From an uncultured virus (IMG/VR IMGVR_UViG_3300048442_000810) (taxonomy: Duplodnaviria; Heunggongvirae; Uroviricota; Caudoviricetes): a stretch of DNA of 20,000 nt. Shown in pieces: positions 2,070 to 18,072 of the stretch. Numbering within the stretch: the stretch's first letter is position 1; each line of letters starts with the position of its first letter. The stretch lies in IMG/VR virus record IMGVR_UViG_3300048442_000810. The stretch is one strand, 5' to 3'. The translations under genes were made by a program, and so were the position numbers. Under the pieces are notes generated by a model, which did not search any database, was not told the origin of the DNA, and worked only from the letters and a program-made list of their open reading frames with translations.

Positions 2070-2426
2070 TTACTTTTTTAAATATTTGTTATAAGCCCAA
2101 AATCCTACTAAAAGTGCTCCTGCAATAAATACTACTTTCTTAGTTGGAAAGTTAGATACACTTGCACCTGCCGTTACTTCTGAACTTCCTAAACTTACTG
2201 AACCGCTAACGGCTGCTCCTCTTGGAAACTCTATATTTTCATCAGCATTATCTAATACCACTTGCTCTTTAGTTCTTGGTGCATCAGGAATAAATCCTTC
2301 GCCATTCATATTAATGAATTCTTCATTTTCAATGAATTTTGCTCCATACTTGTTTTTTTGCTCTCCTACCCACTCGCTGAATGGAGTATCTGAACCTGAT
2401 AATTTGTAAACTTGATTTGCAGTCAT
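2070..2426 (-). CDS. Tail-anchored virion membrane protein
   Basis: C-terminal TM VVFIAGALLVGFWAY ending LKK. Carries the motif FINMNG. Confidence 0.75.
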   Translation of the reverse strand: MTANQVYKLSGSDTPFSEWVGEQKNKYGAKFIENEEFINMNGEGFIPDAPRTKEQVVLDNADENIEFPRGAAVSGSVSLGSSEVTAGASVSNFPTKKVVFIAGALLVGFWAYNKYLKK

Positions 2427-2466
2427 TTTTTTTTGATTTTAATTGTTAATTGTTAATTGTTATTAT

Positions 2467-3060
2467 TTATTTTTTTAAGACAAGAACTAAAAGCATAATT
2501 CCTACTAATGCTCCTGCACCTATCATTAAATTCTTTTTTTCTTTATCGGCTTTTGCAGTTTCACGATTTATTAAAGCCTGTGCTTCATTAAATGTTCTTT
2601 CAGTTGCTGCTGCCGAGTCCTTGCCCAATTGTGTTAATTGCTCTCTTATAGCATCTAGTTCTTTGTTTTTTTCTGCTACATCTGCAATACCTGCATCAAT
2701 AGAAGATTCTACTGTAGTATTTACCTGACAATCTCTAGCATCCATAAAACTAACTACTTTACCTTTGTGGAATGTAGCTGCCTTTCTTTTTCTCTTAGGA
2801 ACTCTACTATTACCTGTATTAGAGTTATAGATGTTTTGAAAGAAATCTTTACACTCTTGTAAGTCTACACAACTATCTCCTGCTGCGTAATCACAATCAG
2901 CTTTTTGACTTGCCAATTCGGCATTATATCTGTCACTTTCGGCTCCTTTAGGGTTAGTTATATCTTTAAACCAAGACCCTCCAATAAAGCCGGGATGATT
3001 TAAGAATTCACCATCTGTAAGAGATGATACATTTTGATTTGAATCACTATCTAAAAACAT
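2467..3060 (-). CDS. Tail-anchored Cys-containing helical protein, paralog of 3064..3894
   Basis: MFLDSD start, FLNHPG motif, FMDARDC, coiled coil, C-terminal TM followed by KK. Confidence 0.75.
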   Translation of the reverse strand: MFLDSDSNQNVSSLTDGEFLNHPGFIGGSWFKDITNPKGAESDRYNAELASQKADCDYAAGDSCVDLQECKDFFQNIYNSNTGNSRVPKRKRKAATFHKGKVVSFMDARDCQVNTTVESSIDAGIADVAEKNKELDAIREQLTQLGKDSAAATERTFNEAQALINRETAKADKEKKNLMIGAGALVGIMLLVLVLKK

Positions 3061-3063
3061 AAT

Positions 3064-3894
3064 TTATTTCTTTTTTAATATTAATACTGCAATGACTATA
3101 GCTGCTCCAATCATAATCATTTTATTTCTTTTTGCTAACTCAGCATTATCTTCTGCTGCTATTGCTGCTGCTGCATCTGACTCTTCTTTTATTAGTTCTA
3201 TTTCTTGATTATATGCTGCATCTGATGTTTCTTTTTCTATTTGTGCTAATTCTGCTGCTGCTGCTGCATCTTCTGCTGCTGCTTCTGCTGCATTTTGTGC
3301 AATTTGAGCAGTATCAATAGCTGAGGTTGTGCCATTACAATCTCTTGCATCCATAAATCCTGAAACCTTACTTAAAGCATCAGAAATTTCACTTAAATAT
3401 TTTGCTCTATAATCTCTATCAAATTCGTGTACTACCGAAGCATTACTCCAATCATTCATTAAAGAATTTAAACTTTCAGTAACACTAACATACTCTGCAC
3501 AAGTCATATCTGAAGTAAATGGAACTAAGTTTTTTACTCTTGATTTAACTGAAGCAAGACTACTACTCATAGTAGCTAAATTAAGTCCGTGTGAGTTTAA
3601 ACTTCTAGCTTTTGTATCATATGCTTCTTTGATTGCTTGATTTGAAGAGTAATCTCCAATTTTAAAGCCGGGTGTTTGGCACAGAATACCCATAAAACCT
3701 CTACAAGGAGTATATCCTGCATTTTGGAAACCTGCCTTACCGGGGAAAATATTATATTTTATAACAAATTCTCTGTAATTTACACTTGCAGCAGCATTAT
3801 AATATTCTCCACTTGCATAAAGTGAGTTGTCCTGCATTGCATCTGTGTCAAAATTTCCAAAACTATTTGCGTTAAAGTCGCTATCTATAAACAT
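3064..3894 (-). CDS. Tail-anchored Cys-containing helical protein, paralog of 2467..3060
   Basis: MFIDSD start, FMDARDC, Ala/Glu-rich stalk, C-terminal TM followed by KKK. Confidence 0.75.
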   Translation of the reverse strand: MFIDSDFNANSFGNFDTDAMQDNSLYASGEYYNAAASVNYREFVIKYNIFPGKAGFQNAGYTPCRGFMGILCQTPGFKIGDYSSNQAIKEAYDTKARSLNSHGLNLATMSSSLASVKSRVKNLVPFTSDMTCAEYVSVTESLNSLMNDWSNASVVHEFDRDYRAKYLSEISDALSKVSGFMDARDCNGTTSAIDTAQIAQNAAEAAAEDAAAAAELAQIEKETSDAAYNQEIELIKEESDAAAAIAAEDNAELAKRNKMIMIGAAIVIAVLILKKK

Positions 3895-3904
3895 ATTTCT
3901 TTTT

Positions 3905-4174
3905 TTAATTATCCATTACACCGTTTTTGAAACGGTATGCCCCAAGTTTTAATCCTTCTACTCCTCCAAACTTAGATTTTGTTTTACAATCTTTATTTGT
4001 GAAAATTCCATCTCCACTATCATCCATACTGTCACAACCTCTGTCCCAAGTTAGTACAGGCTCATATGAATACTTATCTCCTCCTACAGTAATAACTGCA
4101 TCTCCGGATTGATTAAACCAAAGTTCTGTACTATTTTGTGCTCCTGATTGATTAAACCATAAATTGTTTTCCAT
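3905..4174 (-). CDS. Small structural protein, 89 aa (start corrected to MENNLW)
   Basis: ATG at 4174 behind an A-rich spacer, which removes the overlap with the upstream gene. LWFNQSG occurs twice. Confidence 0.7.
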   Translation of the reverse strand: MENNLWFNQSGAQNSTELWFNQSGDAVITVGGDKYSYEPVLTWDRGCDSMDDSGDGIFTNKDCKTKSKFGGVEGLKLGAYRFKNGVMDN

Positions 4175-4184
4175 TTTCTTTTTT

Positions 4185-4508
4185 TTAATAATCTCCAAAC
4201 ATAAAATCACTACTACCACCAAATCCAAACCACACATCTGAATTGGCTTTTGTTCCTCCACTTGCATTTAGCATAGATGGAGTAATATTTTGATAAGGGT
4301 CAATCACACTTGTATTAACTCTTGTAGATGTATTACCTGCAACTGCATTTCCTGTTGTAACACTATATTGTTCAGTTGGACCACCAATACCATCTCCACC
4401 AAAAATTGATGAATAATCGCATCCGCTTCCATCAGGTAAACTACATAAAGGATAGCAAGGGTCATTTGTAACATATTGTCCGTTACATAACATTGTTTTG
4501 TTGCTCAT
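4185..4508 (-). CDS. Small Cys/Gly-rich protein
   Basis: Four Cys in the first ~30 aa. Contains IDPYQN and MLNASG. Sits in the operon with short spacers. Confidence 0.7.
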   Translation of the reverse strand: MSNKTMLCNGQYVTNDPCYPLCSLPDGSGCDYSSIFGGDGIGGPTEQYSVTTGNAVAGNTSTRVNTSVIDPYQNITPSMLNASGGTKANSDVWFGFGGSSDFMFGDY

Positions 4509-4512
4509 AATT

Positions 4513-5202
4513 TTATCTTTTCATTACTTTATAAATACCATATCCAACTGCTCCAAGAACTAAAAATCCAAGCATTAAGTTTGTAGGACTATTTAGACCT
4601 CCTGTTGCTGCTGCGGATTGTGTAAATAATTGTTGTTGATTAGCCAAATTGACTTGTTGTGCTTGTTGTTCTGCAATACAAGCTGATTCCATAGCATCTT
4701 TTATACTTGGTCTACGAATACCTCTTGTTTTTCTTGCTCTTGCATTAACTCTTCTAGAACCTCTACTTCCTCCATCTTTATTGGCTTCTAATCTATCTAC
4801 ATCTCCATCTAATCTTTCTAAACTTGATGTAAGAACCGCACAGTTTCCTGTATTAGGATATTCTGCATTTACTTTAGCTTGTTCTTTAGCTTCTCGTTCT
4901 CTTTCAGCTTTCTTTTTACTCCAAGTTATGCCTAAAAATCCGGGATGGTTACTCCATACATCACTATCAGGCATTGAATTATTATCATCATCAGTTAAGA
5001 CCATATTTGGTCTATTTCCAATATGATGGTCTAATGTGATTGATTCTTCTCCTGATGCATTAAAAGCAGTACCAACTATCTGAGATACTCTTACTGCTTC
5101 TTCTTTTGTTACATTTCCTGCTTGATTTGACCAAACTGTGTTGCCCCAAGGCATATCATTTGGTACATCTGAAGCATCCATATTTAAAAAGTTATTGTCC
5201 AT
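4513..5202 (-). CDS. Tail-anchored protein with four copies of the shared motif and a Cys-flanked helical domain
   Basis: FLNMDA, WSNQAG, AFNASG, WSNHPG, then an Arg-rich segment between two Cys and a C-terminal TM. Confidence 0.75.
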   Translation of the reverse strand: MDNNFLNMDASDVPNDMPWGNTVWSNQAGNVTKEEAVRVSQIVGTAFNASGEESITLDHHIGNRPNMVLTDDDNNSMPDSDVWSNHPGFLGITWSKKKAEREREAKEQAKVNAEYPNTGNCAVLTSSLERLDGDVDRLEANKDGGSRGSRRVNARARKTRGIRRPSIKDAMESACIAEQQAQQVNLANQQQLFTQSAAATGGLNSPTNLMLGFLVLGAVGYGIYKVMKR

Positions 5203-5218
5203 TTTTTATATTTTTTTA

Positions 5219-5347
5219 TTAAGCTGATTCTTGTCCTTTATAATATCCATAGCCAATTACATAAAATAATAATCCTACTGATACCATTGATAAAACAAAA
5301 TTACCTACACTCATTTTCGATACATTTTCTTCTTCTGTTCTTGCCAT
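5219..5347 (-). CDS. 42-aa single-TM microprotein (not in ORF track)
   Basis: MARTEEENVSKMSVGNFVLSMVSVGLLFYVIGYGYYKGQESA. Fills the gap, has an A-rich start and resembles the C-terminus of 5365..5754. Confidence 0.8.
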   Translation of the reverse strand: MARTEEENVSKMSVGNFVLSMVSVGLLFYVIGYGYYKGQESA

Positions 5348-5364
5348 TTTTTTAATTTTTTTTA

Positions 5365-5754
5365 TTACTTAGCAGCCGTACCGCCTTTTCTAATTGCATA
5401 CCCAATTACAAATGCAGTTAAACCAATTCCTAAATATCCCATAACTAATTTGCCTACAGTCATTTTCATAACTCCTTTATTTTGTGACTCACCTGAAGCA
5501 TTTTGGAATACTCCACCATCTTGCCACATAGTTTCACGATTTCTTCCTGATTGTTGCCAATTAGTACCCGTAAAACTTCTAAAGTTTTGTCTTTGCCCTC
5601 TTGGACCATATCTTAATGAGCCTTGTGAAGGAACTCCTCTTGTTTTTGAAACATTAGTTCTAGGTACTTCAACACAAATGCCATTTTGACATTCATAATT
5701 ACAATTTGGACCACAAGTGGGGCACGAATAGGTACTACTACAATTAATTGCCAT
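5365..5754 (-). CDS. Tail-anchored protein with an N-terminal 6-Cys minidomain
   Basis: CSSTYSCPTCGPNCNYECQNGIC, motifs FRSFTG and FQNASG, C-terminal TM. Confidence 0.75.
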   Translation of the reverse strand: MAINCSSTYSCPTCGPNCNYECQNGICVEVPRTNVSKTRGVPSQGSLRYGPRGQRQNFRSFTGTNWQQSGRNRETMWQDGGVFQNASGESQNKGVMKMTVGKLVMGYLGIGLTAFVIGYAIRKGGTAAK

Positions 5755-5765
5755 ATCTTTTTTTT

Positions 5766-6596
5766 TTATTTACTTGCTCTCAAATTAGGTGTACTATTCT
5801 GAGTGCAAAATTTATTTCTTTCAAAATTTGTTATAAACTGATTTAAAATGTCAAATCTTTCTTTATTTTGAGGTGTTGGAGTGTCCTTAAATGTTGTAAG
5901 GAAACTTTGATAAGCCTCTATTCTTGGATAACCAAGAGCCAAATAAATTAATAATCCATTCAAATCTGCTTCTGTTTCATCTTCCATATTCTCATTCAAA
6001 TAAAAATGAGAAAACTCGTGTAATAGAATTGCCATTCTCATTGGAACAGTAAACTTTTTATAGTGTGCTTTGCTTACTTGTATAATTCCTTTTGACTGAC
6101 TAATTCTTGCAGGGGTTTGTATTACCAAACCTCTTTTTGTTCTAATATCATCAAAGTAATCTATTCTAAAATTACCCTCATCTGAGATATATGTGCTTCC
6201 GTTTGGAAACTTTCCTGCACTTAATATTCCTGCGTTGTCTGAAAATTGTTGAGCAAAATTTGCAAAATCTCTTATTTTTGGATTACTCCAATCAACACAA
6301 TCCATTTTTCTTTCTAATGGTCTAGCATCTATTTTTACAACTTTAAATGATGCATCTTGACCCTTTTTCAAATTACCGTTAGCTTTATTATATACACTTA
6401 TAAGTGCTTCATAAGGAGATAAAGGCATTCTAACGAAGAATCTTTGCTTACCATCAATAGTTGCATATCTATTAGTATAATCAGTATTAGGCTTATTAAT
6501 ATCCTTAACTACTATCTGAATTTTTTGAGGACTATTTGTTACGACCTCTATCATAATAGTTAACGATTTTTGCTTTGTTTTAAATAAAATATTCAT
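5766..6596 (-). CDS. Zinc metalloprotease (HExxH, gluzincin-like); candidate virion maturation protease
   Basis: AILLHEFSH followed by ETEAD, which supplies a likely third ligand. The maturation role is inferred from its position among structural genes. Confidence 0.7.
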   Translation of the reverse strand: MNILFKTKQKSLTIMIEVVTNSPQKIQIVVKDINKPNTDYTNRYATIDGKQRFFVRMPLSPYEALISVYNKANGNLKKGQDASFKVVKIDARPLERKMDCVDWSNPKIRDFANFAQQFSDNAGILSAGKFPNGSTYISDEGNFRIDYFDDIRTKRGLVIQTPARISQSKGIIQVSKAHYKKFTVPMRMAILLHEFSHFYLNENMEDETEADLNGLLIYLALGYPRIEAYQSFLTTFKDTPTPQNKERFDILNQFITNFERNKFCTQNSTPNLRASK

Positions 6597-6718
6597 TTCT
6601 TAATTACCAAAATTATTAAACCTAATAATATGACTCCTCCTACTAACCTTAATCGAGTTACTGATATACCCTTTATTTGCATATCCATTTCTTCTCTTTC
6701 TAAAGGTTGTAGTGCCAC
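6593..6718 (-). CDS. 41-aa single-TM microprotein (not in ORF track)
   Basis: GTG start. MALQPLEREEMDMQIKGISVTRLRLVGGVILLGLIILVIKK. The stop overlaps the protease start (ATGA). Confidence 0.75.
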   Translation of the reverse strand: MALQPLEREEMDMQIKGISVTRLRLVGGVILLGLIILVIKK

Positions 6719-6724
6719 TTATCA

Positions 6725-7033
6725 TTACTTTTTAAAATTTATAATACTCTCCTTTGCTATGTAACCTCCGGCTAATCCTCCGGCTAAAACTCCCATCCAT
6801 ACACTTTTCTTTCTCCATAATGATAGAATAGCCCCTAATACACTTCCTAATACTGCTCCTTTCAACATCTCTTTAGTGCTATCTTTAACTAAAGCTGCCT
6901 TTCCATCATCTACAATCGTACTGATACTTTCTTGTGTTTCAGTTGGCATTGTCATTCTGTTTGTGACATTATTTTGTCCATCAAAAGAAATTTCCTGAGC
7001 CTCATCAAAAAGATTTACTTCGCTATCAAACAT
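6725..7033 (-). CDS. Membrane protein with a glycine-zipper two-helix C-terminus
   Basis: GAVLGSVLGAIL and GVLAGGLAGGYIA. Acidic N-terminus containing ISFDG. Confidence 0.75.
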   Translation of the reverse strand: MFDSEVNLFDEAQEISFDGQNNVTNRMTMPTETQESISTIVDDGKAALVKDSTKEMLKGAVLGSVLGAILSLWRKKSVWMGVLAGGLAGGYIAKESIINFKK

Positions 7034-7044
7034 ATTTCAAAGAA

Positions 7045-7743
7045 CTAATTTTGTACTGCCGGTGATGAACTTCCTTTTCTGCTATTATATAAAGCAAAAC
7101 CTATAACTGCTAAAACCCCAACACCTAATAAAATAAATACAACTTTGCTAGAGCCTCCTAAACCTGCTTGAGTTGGCGGTAATACAGTTTGATTTGCACC
7201 TAATTCCATTTGCTGCAACATCAAATCTCTATTCATTCCTGCAAGTTCCAATTCGTGAGCCCTTTGCTTTCCTGCTTCTTTATAACTTTTATTTCCTTGC
7301 CAAATACCTGCAACTGTAGATAAGACTTGAATTCCTCCGTTTAACCATTGTCCGCCTGTTACTCCTGCACCTGTACTTGCTGATGGAGCAGGAACTCCTC
7401 CTACTTGATTCATAAATCCATCTCTACTAGCATCCGTGTCCATTGGACTAATTTCTTCTGCACCTTCAATAAATGGCAATTGATTAGCTAAAACTAATTT
7501 CATAATTCCAATCCTTACACATTCACTTGTTAAATTGTATGCTACTGCCGTAACTAATTCAACTTTTCCTGCTCGTGAAGAAACTTTCACACCACAGTTA
7601 ATAAGTGTTTTTCGTACTAAAGCCGGTCTACCCTCTATCACTTTAGCAACTTCGGATAACATTAACTCTCTCGTTATAGCCATATCTTTTGTTTTATTTA
7701 TTGCTTTAAAATTTTCTTTAAAATTATGATGCTCATATCTCAT
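7045..7743 (-). CDS. Tail-anchored virion protein
   Basis: Helical N-terminal domain, FMNQVG motif, amphipathic Gly-rich segment, TM VVFILLGVGVLAVIGFALY. Confidence 0.75.
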   Translation of the reverse strand: MRYEHHNFKENFKAINKTKDMAITRELMLSEVAKVIEGRPALVRKTLINCGVKVSSRAGKVELVTAVAYNLTSECVRIGIMKLVLANQLPFIEGAEEISPMDTDASRDGFMNQVGGVPAPSASTGAGVTGGQWLNGGIQVLSTVAGIWQGNKSYKEAGKQRAHELELAGMNRDLMLQQMELGANQTVLPPTQAGLGGSSKVVFILLGVGVLAVIGFALYNSRKGSSSPAVQN

Positions 7744-7744
7744 A

Positions 7745-8254
7745 CTACTTTTTTGCTATTATATATCCTACCGCAAAACCAACTGCTAATAAAAGAATTG
7801 GAGATGTTTGCATTTCTTTCATTTTTCTATCTCTTGCTCTCCTATCTCTTTTTAGCTTTTCTCTAAGTATTTCTTTTTTTACTTCTTTTATTTCACTTAC
7901 TACCTCTTTTGCATCAAAATTAGAACTTGATGTATTAGGCTCAAATGAAGATGGAGCCTCCGGTTTAAATGGGGTTGGCTCTACAACTTCAGGTTCAGCA
8001 AATCCCGGTGTTCTACCTGTTGCATAAGCGAAATCTTTATCTGAACCAAATGATTTAGTGAAAGACTCTAATAAAGACTTATCAGGATGAATTTCACTAA
8101 TATCTTGTAAGGCAACTTTTTTGTATTTTCTTACAATTATTTTTAATCTGCTAATTAATTCACTTATACTGTTGGTAGCTTGAAAACCATAATTACTTAA
8201 AAGTTCATTAGCCCCTGAAGAATTATTATGTGCTATGTATGTGTATAAATTCAT
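7745..8254 (-). CDS. Tail-anchored virion protein
   Basis: Helical N-terminal domain ending HPDK, FAYATG motif, basic stretch, C-terminal TM followed by KK. Confidence 0.75.
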   Translation of the reverse strand: MNLYTYIAHNNSSGANELLSNYGFQATNSISELISRLKIIVRKYKKVALQDISEIHPDKSLLESFTKSFGSDKDFAYATGRTPGFAEPEVVEPTPFKPEAPSSFEPNTSSSNFDAKEVVSEIKEVKKEILREKLKRDRRARDRKMKEMQTSPILLLAVGFAVGYIIAKK

Positions 8255-8292
8255 TTTTATCTTTTTTGTATATTTTTAATTTATCTTTTAGT

Positions 8293-8345
8293 AAAAAAAA
8301 ATGGGGCTCGAAGAAAATGCCTTTGCATCTACCTCTGCCCCATTT
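8293..8345 (-). terminator. Intrinsic terminator downstream of the candidate capsid gene
   Basis: Minus strand AAATGGGGC...(inner ATGC-AAAG-GCAT)...GCCCCATTTTTTTTT: a GC stem followed by a run of nine T. Confidence 0.8.
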
Positions 8346-8378
8346 AATATCTAATCTCTAAGAATTAATAACTTAATA

Positions 8379-9128
8379 TTAACCCTGTAATGCACGAGCA
8401 ACTCCTTGACCAAGAACAATCTTGTCTTGTCTTACAACATTTGGATTACCATAACCACGAGCAATTGAATTGCCTGTTAGAGCACGACCTTGAGAAACAG
8501 TTTCAGATGGGAACAAGTAGACTTTTAAAGTCGCTTTTGCTGCAATACTGTTAACTGTTAATGTAGTAAAGCCATCCCACTTATAGGTATGCTTTAATAC
8601 AGTAATGTCTGTTTGGTTTTGGTAAGGGTCAATTGTAGGAACAAGAGTTTTTTGTTGTTGATTACCATTAGAGTCAACTACTTTTACTACGATAGTTTCT
8701 AGGACCTGTGTTGAGCCTCCATCACTTTGTAGGTAAGTTAATCCAACCACGAATGGTTTAGATGAACTTTGCCATAAAAATTCAAGATAAGTTACACCTG
8801 AAATAGCCATATTATATAGGATATTTGCCGTGTTACCTGCTTCACCTGCCGGAATACCTCCACCTGCTGCGATTGCGGTTACCTTAGTTATCGTGTTATA
8901 TGCTCCACCAATTTCAACAGATGCTACATCTGCTGCCGTAGAGTTATATAATGAGATAATGTAAGGTTGTGATGAACTAGCATCAGCCGAACCCATTGCG
9001 TTTAAGTATTCTTCTTCAGAACCACCAAAGTCAAAAGCATCATCCCAATCATTTACACCATTAGCTGACATAAATTCGTTTGAAATGTTTTCTTCTGCAT
9101 CAGAGAAATAACGGTTTAAATTTTCCAT
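8379..9128 (-). CDS. Candidate major capsid protein (jelly-roll-like beta sandwich with an acidic N-terminal extension)
   Basis: Soluble, with many short beta-type segments (PYIISLYN, FVVGLTYLQS, IVVKVVD, TTLTVN, LKVYLFP). Heads the structural block, has a long leader and its own terminator. The fold is inferred. Confidence 0.6.
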   Translation of the reverse strand: MENLNRYFSDAEENISNEFMSANGVNDWDDAFDFGGSEEEYLNAMGSADASSSQPYIISLYNSTAADVASVEIGGAYNTITKVTAIAAGGGIPAGEAGNTANILYNMAISGVTYLEFLWQSSSKPFVVGLTYLQSDGGSTQVLETIVVKVVDSNGNQQQKTLVPTIDPYQNQTDITVLKHTYKWDGFTTLTVNSIAAKATLKVYLFPSETVSQGRALTGNSIARGYGNPNVVRQDKIVLGQGVARALQG

Positions 9129-11410: not shown

Positions 11411-12229
11411 TTATGTTAGGAAATATTGCTGCCTTATTCTAGCCCTTACTTGTCTAATAGCTTCATCTCTATCAATTTTAGAGCCATCACTTAAACTTTT
11501 TTTATTAATAGCAGGTTTTACTACGGAATTAAAATTTTTAGATAAGTATTCATCTATTCCATTATTTATAATTGCTTCAGACATTTTTCCTTTTAATTTT
11601 TCTTCATCTAAATCTACATACATAAAATATCTAGGATTATCATTAAAATACTGTGTGTTTACTATATTTTCAGCTATACTAAACATTTCGTATTTATCAG
11701 GAAATTTATTTCTATGTCTTTCAATACTATCTGAGTTTTTATGAAACCTCAACCAATTAGCATTTTGCCATACTTTAGTTGTTATTCTTCCAATACTCTG
11801 AAAATGCATAATAATATCTAAGTCTGTGTGTCTGTTGGAGCAAATAGCACCTACAATATCTGTTGGAAGATGGTCACCTACATACTTATTAATGTCCTCA
11901 ATCAATAACATACCCCCTCTAAAATAGTGTAGTATATCCCATAATTGATTTGCTATTTCTTTTAAAGTAAGTCTTATTCCTGTTTGCTCATTAAAAGGTC
12001 TTACCCTTCTTATTTCTGCGGTAGGCATAACAGAAAATCTTACTAAATCTTTCATAGATATAGCTTTATAATCTACAAACTCATCATTAACATCTAAAAT
12101 TAATACTCTACGAGGAAGAACCCCTTTTGATGGATTTCCATAAACATAGGATTCAATAAGTATTTTAGTTTGATAAGTTTTACCAATCCCTTTTTTTCCT
12201 ACTGCCATTCCTAGCTTTGGTTCTCTCAT
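11411..12229 (-). CDS. FtsK-HerA superfamily genome-packaging ATPase (A32/PRD1 P9-like)
   Basis: Walker A GKKGIGKT at the N-terminus, VLILD strand, Walker B MLLIED, Arg-finger NRH, then IIMHFQ. 272 aa with no TM or nuclease domain. Confidence 0.75.
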   Translation of the reverse strand: MREPKLGMAVGKKGIGKTYQTKILIESYVYGNPSKGVLPRRVLILDVNDEFVDYKAISMKDLVRFSVMPTAEIRRVRPFNEQTGIRLTLKEIANQLWDILHYFRGGMLLIEDINKYVGDHLPTDIVGAICSNRHTDLDIIMHFQSIGRITTKVWQNANWLRFHKNSDSIERHRNKFPDKYEMFSIAENIVNTQYFNDNPRYFMYVDLDEEKLKGKMSEAIINNGIDEYLSKNFNSVVKPAINKKSLSDGSKIDRDEAIRQVRARIRQQYFLT

Positions 12230-14262: not shown

Positions 14263-15432
14263 TTATTTTTCTTCAGCTTCCATAGCATCTGACATATCGA
14301 AACCTTTATTTAAATCTACATCTTCAACTGTAGCTTCTATAATTGTTGTTTTACTTTCTTCTTCTGTTGGCTCTAACCTCATTTTTTTTCTAGGTCTGCC
14401 TCTTCTTCTTTTTGGAACTACGGTTATTTCATCTTCCATATCATCGTGAAAAGTTCCTTCATCTTCATTCGGAGAATTCATTTCCTGTTCTACAGTTTGT
14501 TTTATAGGGTTTGCAATTTCTTCTTGTTTCGGAAGCCCTCCAAACACCTCTTCTTCTCTTAAAGCAGATGGTGCTTCAGGCTCCGGAGTTGGTGGTGGCG
14601 GAGGTGGTGATTGAGGCTTAGGAGGATTTGGTGGAGGTGACTGAGGAGGAGGACTTTGTGGTCTTGGTCCTGTTGCTCCTTGAGAACTAGAGTTAAACTC
14701 AGGATTTACTTGAGCATTATACATTTCTGTCATCATTTTCAACGATTGTGTAAGTGATTTTTTGAATGTATAAAGTTGTGCTCCTTTTTGAACTATATCT
14801 TTTCCAAATGCTACCATTAAGAATTGCTCATCACTCAAACCATATCCTCTTGAAGAGAATACTCTAATCATTACGGGTCTTACACTTTCTACAAACTCAT
14901 CATCAACTACTAATACTTCAGTTACCTGTCTATTATATTCTCCAATAAACTCTTGAACTGAAATTGTTTGAGTCTGAGAAATAGGGATTCGCATATCAGG
15001 ATTTATCTCTCCCTTGATAGCTTTTTTAACAATTTCTTCTTCACTTAATGAAAAGTATTTTTGTCCAAATGTATGTGCAACTTTATATCCTTCTAAAAAA
15101 GTGTCTACCATCAAACTAGCACTTTCATCGGCATCTTTTTTACTATAATCTTGCAGGTCGTTATTTACAAAAGGGTCATCGCTTCCAAATCCTGATTTAG
15201 GTTTTGAGGGCTTTTCCTTTTTTGAAGCAGGTTTATCATCTTCATAATCATCCTCTTGTAATTCATCTAAATTCGGTTGCTGATACATTGGCTCCGGAAT
15301 GCTTGTTATTGAAGCAGGGTCATAAGATACCTTGGGTTTTGTATATTCCCTTTGAACTACCGGCTCATCAAATGGGTTGAAGTTTTCAGGAGTAGATAAT
15401 TCCGAATAATCCGGTGTAGTGTTTTCAGACAT
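14263..15432 (-). CDS. Acidic, partly disordered protein with a Pro-rich linker and an AT-hook-like motif (start corrected to MSENTT)
   Basis: Helical core, PQSPPP repeats, KRRRGRPRKK. ATG 15432 follows the upstream stop. Confidence 0.75.
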   Translation of the reverse strand: MSENTTPDYSELSTPENFNPFDEPVVQREYTKPKVSYDPASITSIPEPMYQQPNLDELQEDDYEDDKPASKKEKPSKPKSGFGSDDPFVNNDLQDYSKKDADESASLMVDTFLEGYKVAHTFGQKYFSLSEEEIVKKAIKGEINPDMRIPISQTQTISVQEFIGEYNRQVTEVLVVDDEFVESVRPVMIRVFSSRGYGLSDEQFLMVAFGKDIVQKGAQLYTFKKSLTQSLKMMTEMYNAQVNPEFNSSSQGATGPRPQSPPPQSPPPNPPKPQSPPPPPPTPEPEAPSALREEEVFGGLPKQEEIANPIKQTVEQEMNSPNEDEGTFHDDMEDEITVVPKRRRGRPRKKMRLEPTEEESKTTIIEATVEDVDLNKGFDMSDAMEAEEK

Positions 15433-15433
15433 A

Positions 15434-15871
15434 TTATTTATTATTTTCAACGAATATCTTAATATCGTTGTTTATTTTAATTAATTTATTATTTTGTTTT
15501 TTTTCTTCAGGAAATTTCGGATTCAAATTTTCCATATAACGCATATCTCTGCTTACAGTCGCTTTATTTAATTTAAGATTTTGAGATATTTGAGATTGTG
15601 ACCAATGTAGATGTTCTCTGATTAGTAATACTAACATTGCTCGTGCTTTTGTTCTAACACCAAACTTCCTGCTTTTGCCTAGAAACAGTTCACTCTCTGA
15701 TATGTTGAAATTTTTGCAAGTTGTTTTGATAATATAAGCTAAAAGATAATCTTGATTTTCATATCCTTCTTTTAGTCCTTTATCTATAATTTTTTTTGCC
15801 TTTTCGATTCCTTTCTCATCAACGAGTTTCATTAATTTTTTAATGAGTTCAAAAGAATTGGTGTGTTTCAC
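15434..15871 (-). CDS. HTH protein with a DnaA C-terminal (domain IV)-like fold
   Basis: IIKTTCKNFNISESELFLGKSRK...ARAMLVLLIREHLHWSQSQISQNLKLNKATV. No AAA+ domain. GTG start. Confidence 0.7.
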   Translation of the reverse strand: MKHTNSFELIKKLMKLVDEKGIEKAKKIIDKGLKEGYENQDYLLAYIIKTTCKNFNISESELFLGKSRKFGVRTKARAMLVLLIREHLHWSQSQISQNLKLNKATVSRDMRYMENLNPKFPEEKKQNNKLIKINNDIKIFVENNK

Positions 15872-17103: not shown

Positions 17104-18072
17104 TTATTTAGGACCAAACGGAGGCATACCTCCTTCAGGTGCTTTAGGAAGCCCTCCAAATACCTCATTTTCATTTACTGTTTTAGGTGGAGCAAATCTA
17201 TTAGGATTTTGTCCTTGATTGCCTTGAGGACTGTTTTGTACTGCATTAGAGATTCCATAATTTTGTTGTGAATCAAAATAATTTTCTGTCCCCGGATTAT
17301 TATTTACATAATTCTTTATTGGGCTTTTGCTATCTCCTATACTTTCTGCAATTTTACTTGCATTAAAATATTTATTTTTAAAGTTGTCATCGTTAATAAT
17401 ACCCTGAGCCAATTGCTTACCAAAAACTTCATCAGAAGGAAAATGAACTCCTAAAATTATTCTTGATTTAGAGCATTTATCAGCAAATTTAGTTAGCATA
17501 TCTTGTTGGTCGGGATAACGAAAAGATAATATCTCTGCAAATACCCTGCTTTGTACTGTATGACCTGAAGGGTATGAAGGTGACTGAGCAGATACCGTAG
17601 GCATTGGGTTCAAAGGAAACTTATAAATATTTGCAAGTTGATAAGGTCTTATTCTATTATAATAAAATTTTAACTTCATTATAATTGGATTTATATCTTT
17701 ATATAATTCTTTTACAAAACCTTCAGGATTTGAAACTCCGCATTTATATGCAGTATCAAGAAACATTCCTTCTAAATCTTCATCAAATTTGATACTTAAC
17801 TCCACAACTTTATCGTGTTGGAGTTTTTCCATATCTTTTTGTATATCCTTTAACTCTTTAGCGGCATAAGTACCATCATTATTTGGATAGGGTTTATCCA
17901 TAAAATAATTTGCTATGTAATCAAAATCTCCTTCTTTTCTAATAAGTATATCTTGTGCTGCATTAGGATTTCCATATGTTAGATTATTAACAGGAATTAG
18001 CCCATACTTAGTTTCAGGTGTAGAAGTATTAATTGTTTGCTGAGTTCTTTTTCTTGTTCTTGTTCTAGCCAT
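17104..18072 (-). CDS. PAP2 / acid phosphatase / vanadium haloperoxidase superfamily protein, soluble
   Basis: All three motifs present: KFYYNRIRP, PSYPSGH, SRIILGVHFPSD. N/Q/P-rich tail. Confidence 0.88.
   Translation of the reverse strand: MARTRTRKRTQQTINTSTPETKYGLIPVNNLTYGNPNAAQDILIRKEGDFDYIANYFMDKPYPNNDGTYAAKELKDIQKDMEKLQHDKVVELSIKFDEDLEGMFLDTAYKCGVSNPEGFVKELYKDINPIIMKLKFYYNRIRPYQLANIYKFPLNPMPTVSAQSPSYPSGHTVQSRVFAEILSFRYPDQQDMLTKFADKCSKSRIILGVHFPSDEVFGKQLAQGIINDDNFKNKYFNASKIAESIGDSKSPIKNYVNNNPGTENYFDSQQNYGISNAVQNSPQGNQGQNPNRFAPPKTVNENEVFGGLPKAPEGGMPPFGPK

What the first reader, a model, noticed from the sequence alone, without database searches (positions are those of the whole stretch)
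2070..9128. Shared aromatic-x-N-x-x-G motif in 11 structural proteins: candidate maturation-cleavage or assembly signal
Seen: FINMNG (2070 ORF); FLNHPG (2467); SLYASG, YYNAAA (3064); WFNQSG twice (3905); MLNASG (4185); FLNMDA, WSNQAG, AFNASG, WSNHPG (4513); FRSFTG, FQNASG (5365); ISFDG (6725); FMNQVG (7045); FAYATG, SSNFDA (7745); FMSANG, YLNAMG (capsid candidate). The copies lie in acidic or low-complexity N-terminal segments or linkers of mostly unrelated proteins. The only match I noticed in the enzyme genes is WNNAHG in the amidase. Inference: a common protease site that removes propeptides, as in adenovirus and poxvirus maturation, or a short capsid/scaffold docking motif.
Basis: partly seen in the sequence, partly recalled or inferred. 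Interest (0 to 1): 0.88.

Follow-up and report, generated by a model that had tools for sequence, protein, structure and literature searches.

The report
Shared assembly tag in phage proteins
The likely coat protein and several unrelated membrane proteins of an uncultured marine virus carry the same short peptide tag, kept across a very large virus family that always keeps a zinc-protease gene among them, so the tag probably marks proteins for cutting or docking during particle assembly, but no cutting has been shown.

Summary
The motif is real. All 19 listed copies are present, but only 9 fit the title pattern, 2 are not conserved, and the 11 ORFs are about 7 independent families. The refined consensus is [D/E]-x-aromatic-x-[N/G/S]-[A/F/Q/H/M]-x-G.

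It ranks first in a de novo search of relatives (29 families vs 4.8 expected). All 117 testable capsid-candidate homologues carry it in their disordered N-arm (239 copies vs 16). It persists where the protease is only 31-47% identical (97 sites vs 32).

The 5766-6596 gene is a beta-sandwich plus an M48-like zinc-protease domain with invariant catalytic residues. It lies beside the capsid gene in all 83 loci long enough to show it (83 of 109).

Best reading (0.5): a recruit-and-cut maturation tag read by that protease. Strong rival (0.35): an uncut docking motif, because 41-48 aa anchor-plus-motif proteins end 1-11 residues after it. Cleavage is not shown.

This scan noted the same motif on other genomes; nine literature searches found no description.

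The parts
8379..9128 (-). Capsid candidate, 249 aa: N-terminal helix (4-19), disordered acidic arm (17-51), single jelly-roll-type beta-sandwich (about 52-210)
   Evidence: Model pLDDT 67.5. Generic jelly-roll matches Z <= 6.9. 870 homologues; 862 clusters at 50% identity. Capsid role is inferred.
9057..9074 (-). Motif copy 1 in the capsid arm (residues 19-24)
   Evidence: Class kept in 21 of 32 close orthologues; several misses are His at position 1 or gap placement
8991..9008 (-). Motif copy 2 in the capsid arm (residues 41-46), about 10 residues before the first strand
   Evidence: Class kept in 31 of 32; Gly in all; four Gly codons used
8015..8032 (-). Motif copy in ORF 7745-8254 (residues 75-80), between a conserved N-terminal domain and the C-terminal membrane anchor
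   Evidence: Positions 1, 4 and 6 identical in 25 of 25 close orthologues vs flank identity 0.60. Family in 60 loci, 49 with the pattern.
7399..7416 (-). Motif copy in ORF 7045-7743 (residues 110-115), in the linker before the anchor region
   Evidence: Positions 1 and 6 identical in 21 of 21; position 5 free; flank identity 0.43
5766..6596 (-). Candidate reader: beta-sandwich (1-96) plus M48-like gluzincin (H193, E194, H197, E207). No membrane anchor and no conserved motif copy of its own.
   Evidence: Four residues invariant in 85 of 85. Model pLDDT 90.9. BepA Z 8.8, rmsd 3.8, 117 aligned. Weak SprT/M48 hits in 11 and 6 of 85 members.
5491..5583 (-). Two motif copies in ORF 5365-5754 (residues 58-63 at 5566-5583; residues 83-88 at 5491-5508)
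   Evidence: Class kept in 8 of 9 and 7 of 9
4939..5190 (-). Four motif copies in the N-terminal segment of ORF 4513-5202 (residues 5, 24, 46, 83)
   Evidence: Gly6 kept in 12, 11, 17 and 17 of 17; the window's residue-5 copy is a degenerate form of a canonical site
4257..4274 (-). Motif copy in ORF 4185-4508 (residues 79-84); soluble, Cys-rich N-half of a protein that is often fused to 3905
   Evidence: Gly6 in 18 of 18; fusion in 14 of 25 loci
4103..4159 (-). Two motif copies at the start of ORF 3905-4174 (residues 6-11 and 19-24); soluble, Cys-containing C-half
   Evidence: Second copy kept in 19 of 19, first in 14 of 19
3787..3825 (-). Two degenerate copies in ORF 3064-3894 (residues 24-29 and 31-36)
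   Evidence: Only 6 close orthologues; some restore the canonical form. Weak.
2989..3006 (-). Motif copy in ORF 2467-3060 (residues 19-24; His-Pro variant, homologous to the residue-83 copy of 4513)
   Evidence: Kept in 10 of 10; paralogy
2301..2318 (-). Motif copy in ORF 2070-2426 (residues 37-42), between a conserved N-terminal domain and the anchor
   Evidence: Positions 1, 3 and 6 identical in 14 of 14. In distant members only 24 of 55 keep the pattern.
6977..6991 (-).
   Evidence: Gly not conserved (identity 0.12); 0 of 52 family members have the pattern
7910..7927 (-).
   Evidence: Not conserved among 34 orthologues
11411..12229 (-). P-loop ATPase, HerA/FtsK-like packaging candidate; no motif
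   Evidence: DUF87 E 9e-4. Present in 62 loci. 0 of 14 representatives have a matrix site.

Best explanation
The motif is a short linear tag read by one virus-encoded assembly factor, most likely the conserved zinc protease at 5766-6596. Tagged proteins (the capsid candidate through its disordered arm, membrane-anchored proteins through their linkers, and a few soluble proteins) are recruited to the assembling particle and cut at or next to the tag. This would remove the 46-residue capsid arm in pieces and free N-terminal domains from their membrane anchors. The favoured bond is after Gly6; the bond between positions 3 and 4 is the alternative. Shown: the motif, its conservation, its location, and the protease fold and linkage. 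Inferred: that the protease reads the motif, that it cuts, and where.
For: (1) The zinc-binding and catalytic residues are invariant in 85 of 85 homologues, so the enzyme is probably active and needs substrates. (2) It sits 1.5-7.4 kb from the capsid gene in 83 of 109 loci. Of the 26 misses, 23 have under 2.4 kb of downstream DNA and 3 are paralogue loci. Starting from the protease, 75 of 77 loci hit the capsid-family profile. (3) The capsid arm is predicted disordered, acidic (median net -14) and holds 1-3 copies in 117 of 117 homologues, against 14 copies in all their cores. Distant arms hold tandem arrays of motif-like repeats. Multiple sites in one propeptide are what SPN3US gp245 substrates show (PMC10052503, passages). 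(4) Gly6 is 97% fixed. Pro is rare at position 7 (1.4% vs about 4-7% further downstream) but allowed at position 5, as expected if position 7 is P1'. (5) Copies lie at domain-to-anchor junctions, and the 4185/3905 gene split falls inside the motif cluster.
Against: No cleavage data exist. Eleven distinct 41-48 aa proteins consist of an anchor, a short linker and the motif, with only 1-11 residues after it, so cutting there would release almost nothing; they are one family. After the 4185/3905 split both halves keep copies, so the motif does more than release a domain. The protease has no conserved copy for self-cleavage, unlike SPN3US gp245. No lineage lacking the protease was found, so the linkage cannot separate reader from neighbour. 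The contexts are related sequences, not independent events.
Confidence: 0.5

Rival explanations
1. The motif is an uncut, multivalent docking motif. It binds a pocket on the capsid jelly roll or on a scaffold; the membrane proteins mimic the capsid's own arm and so tie the membrane to the shell. The protease has another substrate.
For: Minimal anchor-plus-motif proteins with 1-11 residue tails, one with a doubled motif. The motif lies near either terminus more often than chance: 19 vs 8.4 within 8 residues of the C-terminus and 19 vs 5.9 within the first 8 residues. Both halves of the split gene keep it. Tandem internal repeats in distant arms often lack Gly6. ORF 4185 also shares six residues with an invariant capsid loop, which hints at capsid mimicry.
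Against: It leaves an invariantly linked, catalytically intact protease without a visible substrate. The number of copies per capsid arm varies from 1 to 4, which suits a disposable propeptide better than a fixed lattice contact.
Confidence: 0.35
2. The motif is a sorting or membrane-insertion signal read by a non-protease factor (for example the conserved 395-aa acidic protein or the ATPase), or by the protease acting as a chaperone as BepA can (recalled).
For: Soluble conserved genes with no assigned role lie in the module in 60 of the loci. The site density is 2.3 per 1000 aa in C-anchored proteins vs 0.44 in proteins without a predicted helix. Flank charges would put the motif on opposite sides for N- and C-anchored proteins under the positive-inside rule (C flank more basic in 220 of 253 and in 50 of 63), so topology needs explaining.
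Against: The capsid candidate and ORFs 3905 and 4185 have no anchor but carry the motif. Many anchored families have none.
Confidence: 0.1
3. The motif is a modification site, such as an N-x-S/T glycosylation sequon or an Asn cross-link.
For: Asn dominates position 3 (69%). The window encodes a glycosyltransferase-like ORF (Anp1, E 3.6e-5).
Against: Only 176 of 490 Asn contexts have S/T at position 5. Asn is replaced by Gly, Ser or Tyr in conserved copies.
Confidence: 0.03
4. The pattern is a by-product of composition or of paralogy in N/G/S-rich linkers.
For: Some listed copies are chance, and three ORFs are paralogues. A 3-position de novo search with 12-residue block shuffles did not rank the motif at the top.
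Against: It ranks first in the 4-position search with 20-residue block shuffles. Held-out test 0 of 1000. Arm shuffles 239 vs 16. Conserved above its flanks with synonymous codon change.
Confidence: 0.02

Closest known systems
Prohead-protease maturation in SPN3US (gp245, cuts after A-x-E), and in T4 (gp21) and phiKZ (gp175)
   Same: One virus-encoded protease and one short consensus in many virion proteins; several sites per N-terminal propeptide; T4 propeptides also target proteins to the prohead (PMC10052503, passages read). The T4 and phiKZ consensus details are recalled or come from earlier scan notes.
   Different: Those are tailed phages with HK97-fold heads and a non-metal protease (recalled) that cuts after Glu and cleaves itself. 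Here the capsid candidate is a jelly roll, the enzyme is a gluzincin, the fixed residue is Gly, most carriers are membrane-anchored, and no self-site is seen.
Adenovirus protease (AVP) and its consensus sites
   Same: A jelly-roll-capsid virus in which one protease cuts several unrelated capsid and core precursors at conserved consensus sites (PMC4246237, passages). The Gly-containing consensus is recalled and also appears in earlier scan notes.
   Different: AVP is a cysteine protease of a eukaryotic virus without a membrane. The enzyme class and the consensus differ, and no homology was found.
M48-family gluzincins (BepA, Ste24/ZMPSTE24)
   Same: HExxH plus a downstream Glu ligand; fold matches BepA Z 8.8, 3c37 Z 6.8 and Ste24 Z 6.3.
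   Different: No Pfam M48 match above cut-off. N-terminal beta-sandwich, no membrane helix, viral context.
Tailless internal-membrane phages (PRD1, PM2, single-jelly-roll viruses), whose membrane proteins tie the membrane to the capsid
   Same: Jelly-roll capsid candidate, HerA/FtsK-like ATPase and many small membrane proteins; no terminase or portal match in 5 related records.
   Different: No sequence match to any cultured phage for the capsid, ATPase or protease. Contigs reach 170 kb. I found no report of a maturation protease or shared tag in these phages: 'protease' occurs 0 times in PMC5894146, and searches returned no papers.

Membership tests
T4/phiKZ/SPN3US prohead-protease system | One consensus site in many virion proteins, several per propeptide | tested here: met
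T4/phiKZ/SPN3US prohead-protease system | Cleavage consensus ending in Glu | tested here: not met
   The fixed residue is Gly (97%); SPN3US cuts after A-x-E
T4/phiKZ/SPN3US prohead-protease system | Tailed virion with terminase and portal | tested here: inconclusive
   0 of 5 related records (4 rated >=90% complete) match PF03237 or PF04860, with controls positive. One family each was tested, on relatives rather than the window's own genome. The ATPase has a weak P-loop hit to a terminase PHROG (E 1.8e-4).
T4/phiKZ/SPN3US prohead-protease system | Cleavage shown in particles | not testable with these tools
   The virus is uncultured
Adenovirus AVP system | Cysteine protease of the adenain class | tested here: not met
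   The linked enzyme is an HExxH zinc protease; AVP is a cysteine protease
M48-like gluzincin | HExxH plus a downstream Glu ligand | tested here: met
   H193, E194, H197 and E207 invariant in 85 of 85
M48-like gluzincin | M48 catalytic fold | tested here: met
   Best match BepA Z 8.8, rmsd 3.8, 117 aligned, model range 128-261; three more M48 entries among 50 rows. The Z is modest for a helical domain.
Peptidase M48 (Pfam PF01435) proper | Profile score above the family cut-off | tested here: not met
   No hit for the window protein; best member E 0.007 in 6 of 85; Atlas hits under 0.9
M48-like gluzincin | Peptidase activity and specificity | not testable with these tools
   Needs an assay
Single-jelly-roll tailless membrane viruses | Single jelly-roll major capsid protein | tested here: inconclusive
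   Beta-sandwich at residues 52-210; matches to capsids and non-capsids are tied at Z 5-6.9
Single-jelly-roll tailless membrane viruses | FtsK/HerA packaging ATPase | tested here: inconclusive
   DUF87 E 9e-4, below cut-off; no PDB sequence hit; conserved beside the capsid gene in 62 loci
Single-jelly-roll tailless membrane viruses | Lipid membrane in the particle | not testable with these tools
   Inferred only from the many predicted anchors

The most novel reading that the evidence does not exclude
A very large, undescribed lineage of tailless bacterial viruses matures its particles with an M48-like zinc protease. One tag first gathers the jelly-roll coat protein and a changing set of membrane-anchored and soluble cargo proteins, and is then cut. 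This would be consensus-site proteolytic maturation in a prokaryotic jelly-roll virus, by an enzyme class that I found no report of in this role, and a portable tag for loading cargo into a membrane-lined particle.
Probability: 0.4. Interest if true: 0.82.

Novelty: new variant of a known kind. Interest (0 to 1): 0.62.

Why it matters
Consensus-site maturation is known from tailed phages and from eukaryotic jelly-roll viruses. My searches found no report of it in tailless bacterial viruses, nor with a gluzincin. The capsid-candidate family is large (862 clusters at 50% identity) and has no cultured member. The motif gives a sequence marker for predicting its virion proteins. It also allows a test without culturing the virus: one soluble 276-aa enzyme and short peptide substrates.

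Tried and rejected
Complex prediction of the protease with zinc and capsid residues 8-52 gave no answer (score 0.03, mark 0.32). It is not evidence either way.

The first de novo search (3 exact positions, 12-residue block shuffles) did not rank the motif at the top; only a 3-residue piece of the His-Pro variant scored high.

The test for clade-specific motif dialects shared with the capsid protein was uninformative: the capsid arm uses Ala at position 4 in nearly all clades. Trp at position 1 and Gln/His at position 4 are mainly in the window's clade.

The search for a lineage without the protease failed. Five records with no protease match are 9-34% complete fragments, and the distant-capsid alignment was too divergent to scan with.

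My recalled SAP/HeH resemblance of the 7745 and 7045 N-domains got no Pfam support in 25 proteins.

There was no sequence match for the capsid or protease profiles in the PDB at E <= 0.001, and no Foldseek PDB match at E <= 0.001. Atlas hits were under 0.9. These absences do not show that the folds are new.

A single-protein scan of viral contigs found nothing; no own genome is held.

Read depth and the 4185/3905 junction were not checked against reads. The split is seen in 8 independent assemblies of the window's clade.

Charybdis elements (bioRxiv 2025.08.03.668216, abstract and outline) are 4.6-kb elements and unrelated. The Odin and FLiP groups (PMC5894146, passages) are small, double-jelly-roll and lack an ATPase.

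In one search the second 7745 copy was mis-indexed; it was redone.
Full report
CONTEXT. All long genes of the window are on the minus strand. The right part encodes enzymes: two methyltransferases, a glycosyltransferase-like protein, a DnaA-C-like HTH protein, a RusA-like nuclease, an amidase and a PAP2 protein. The left 9.1 kb is a block of proteins of no known family, most with one hydrophobic helix at an end. Identical capsid-candidate sequences occur on contigs of 43-92 kb. The stretch is held by 20 of 24 listed runs from 15 studies, labelled marine, seawater or viral metagenome; 14 of these may be the source of this DNA and 6 are RNA runs (listing only). No cultured phage matches the capsid candidate, ATPase or protease. 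ORF 8379 models as a helix, a disordered arm (17-51) and one jelly-roll-type sandwich with only generic matches. Five related records lack terminase and portal matches. A tailless, membrane-containing phage is therefore inferred, not shown. The host is unknown: the four genome-collection hits are MAGs of four different groups.

OBSERVATION. All 19 listed copies are present. The strict title pattern gives 9 sites in 7 proteins vs 1.22 shuffled, and 2 vs 1.38 in the other 16 proteins (two of the 17 left-block intervals were mis-entered non-ORF frames). That pattern was chosen on this window, so I tested it elsewhere. In 1321 dereplicated ORFs from L001-L066 plus the window (426 families), all 4-position patterns were ranked against 20-residue block shuffles. 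Aromatic-x-N-A-x-G came first, in 29 families vs 4.8; against whole-protein shuffles, membrane-helix patterns ranked above it. An iterated matrix gave 251 sites vs 43-46, trained and scored on the same data. A matrix trained without the window found 7 left-block sites vs 0.81 (0 of 1000) and 2 elsewhere vs 0.41 (55 of 1000). At a lower threshold the non-structural set was also mildly enriched, 5 vs 1.28. That matrix misses the Gln/His variants, which are typical of the window's clade.

CONSERVATION. In close orthologues the aromatic, Asn and Gly positions exceed their flanks while positions 2 and 5 drift, and the Gly codons vary synonymously, so the signal is at protein level. The 6725 copy and the second 7745 copy fail. 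ORFs 2467, 3064 and 4513 are related, and 4185 with 3905 is one gene in 14 of 25 loci (10 split, 1 single ORF), leaving about 7 independent families. Of 120 capsid homologues, 117 had a testable arm; all carry 1-3 copies (239 vs 16 shuffled; 14 in the cores). Among 137 of 148 distant representatives, 91 carry a copy (137 copies vs 16.8). Those without include paralogues with basic N-termini, and several arms are tandem arrays of motif-like repeats. I then took 15 of 77 protease-anchored loci with 31-47% protease identity, leaving out the closer loci, one near-duplicate and two contigs already used. They hold 97 sites vs about 32 expected; 8 loci are individually at <=3 of 300 shuffles and 7 are not (10-71 of 300). 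The full motif has an acidic residue two positions before the aromatic (49%) and little Pro at positions -1, 2 and 7 (related contexts).

THE PROTEASE. ORF 5766-6596 has 1661 homologues. H193, E194, H197 and E207 are invariant in 85 of 85. The model (pLDDT 90.9) has a beta-sandwich (1-96) and a catalytic domain whose best match is the M48 protease BepA (Z 8.8). It is present in 83 of 109 capsid-anchored loci; all 23 true-capsid misses are truncated within 2.4 kb. Conversely, 75 of 77 protease loci hit the capsid-family profile, paralogues included; many of these contigs overlap the first set. It has no conserved copy of the motif.

MECHANISM. For cutting: an intact, always-linked enzyme; multi-copy sites in a disordered acidic arm ending 10 residues before the capsid core, like SPN3US propeptides (PMC10052503, passages); near-fixed Gly; sites at domain-anchor junctions; and gene fission inside the motif cluster. 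For docking: 11 of 215 distinct short anchored proteins carry the motif, with only 1-11 residues after it, all one family; excess copies at both termini; retention in both halves of the split gene; and a six-residue match between 4185 and an invariant capsid loop. A tag that first recruits and is then cut, as described for T4 propeptides in the same paper, fits most of this, so I give it 0.5, against 0.35 for uncut docking. An open problem is topology: flank charges would put the motif on opposite membrane sides for N- and C-anchored carriers unless the C-anchored ones insert as tail-anchored proteins (tail-anchor behaviour recalled).

COMPARISON AND NOVELTY. It works like prohead-protease and adenovirus maturation but is a member of neither: the fixed residue and the enzyme class differ. 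Nine paper searches returned no description of this lineage or motif. The library lacks most subscription journals, and I read no supplements. Papers seen: PMC5894146, PMC10052503, PMC4246237 and PMC13552765 as passages; bioRxiv 2025.08.03.668216 as abstract and outline; the rest as listings. This scan has noted the same motif and protease on other genomes several times. These are unchecked AI notes and are not counted as support; two searches showed nothing.

VERDICT. A real, deeply conserved assembly tag in an undescribed virus family; its reader is probably the linked gluzincin, but cleavage is unproven. New variant of a known kind; interest 0.62.

Noticed in passing
window 4287-4304 (-), ORF 4185 residues 69-74: Six residues identical to the capsid candidate's near-invariant loop (residues 166-171). 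The pattern is in 26 proteins of that family cluster. It may be a second, capsid-mimicking element.
   Followed up: partly
window 3905-4508 (-): A gene that is fused in 14 of 25 close loci is split here. In L097 the 3905-type domain is instead joined to a 5365-type N-terminus, so modules are exchanged at motif-rich linkers.
   Followed up: partly
window 5219-5347 (-) and about 6593-6688 (-): Two small ORFs below the listing cut-off (42 aa and about 31 aa), each a single hydrophobic helix without the motif. The second, read by eye, overlaps the protease start codon with its stop.
   Followed up: no
L007:654-779, L044:14363-14648, L063:650-778, L039:223-504: A family of anchor-linker-motif proteins, followed either by 1-11 residues or by a highly variable Cys-rich tail, often in several copies per genome.
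   Followed up: partly
L061:9923-10384, L062:9896-10345, L060:605-1267: Capsid-family paralogues without the acidic arm or motif, some with a basic N-terminus; possible vertex proteins.
   Followed up: partly
window 2467-3894 and 4513-5202 (-): Three paralogous C-anchored proteins that share a Cys-containing helical domain.
   Followed up: partly
L004:10801-11175, L012:18987-19307, L025:17811-18116: C-x-C or C-G-C-G stretches often lie next to the motif in relatives; possible cross-linking or metal sites.
   Followed up: no
window 14263-15450, 15434-15871, 17104-18072 (-): A 395-aa acidic protein, a DnaA-C-like HTH protein and a PAP2-family protein are core genes beside the ATPase in 55-60 loci; roles unknown.
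   Followed up: no
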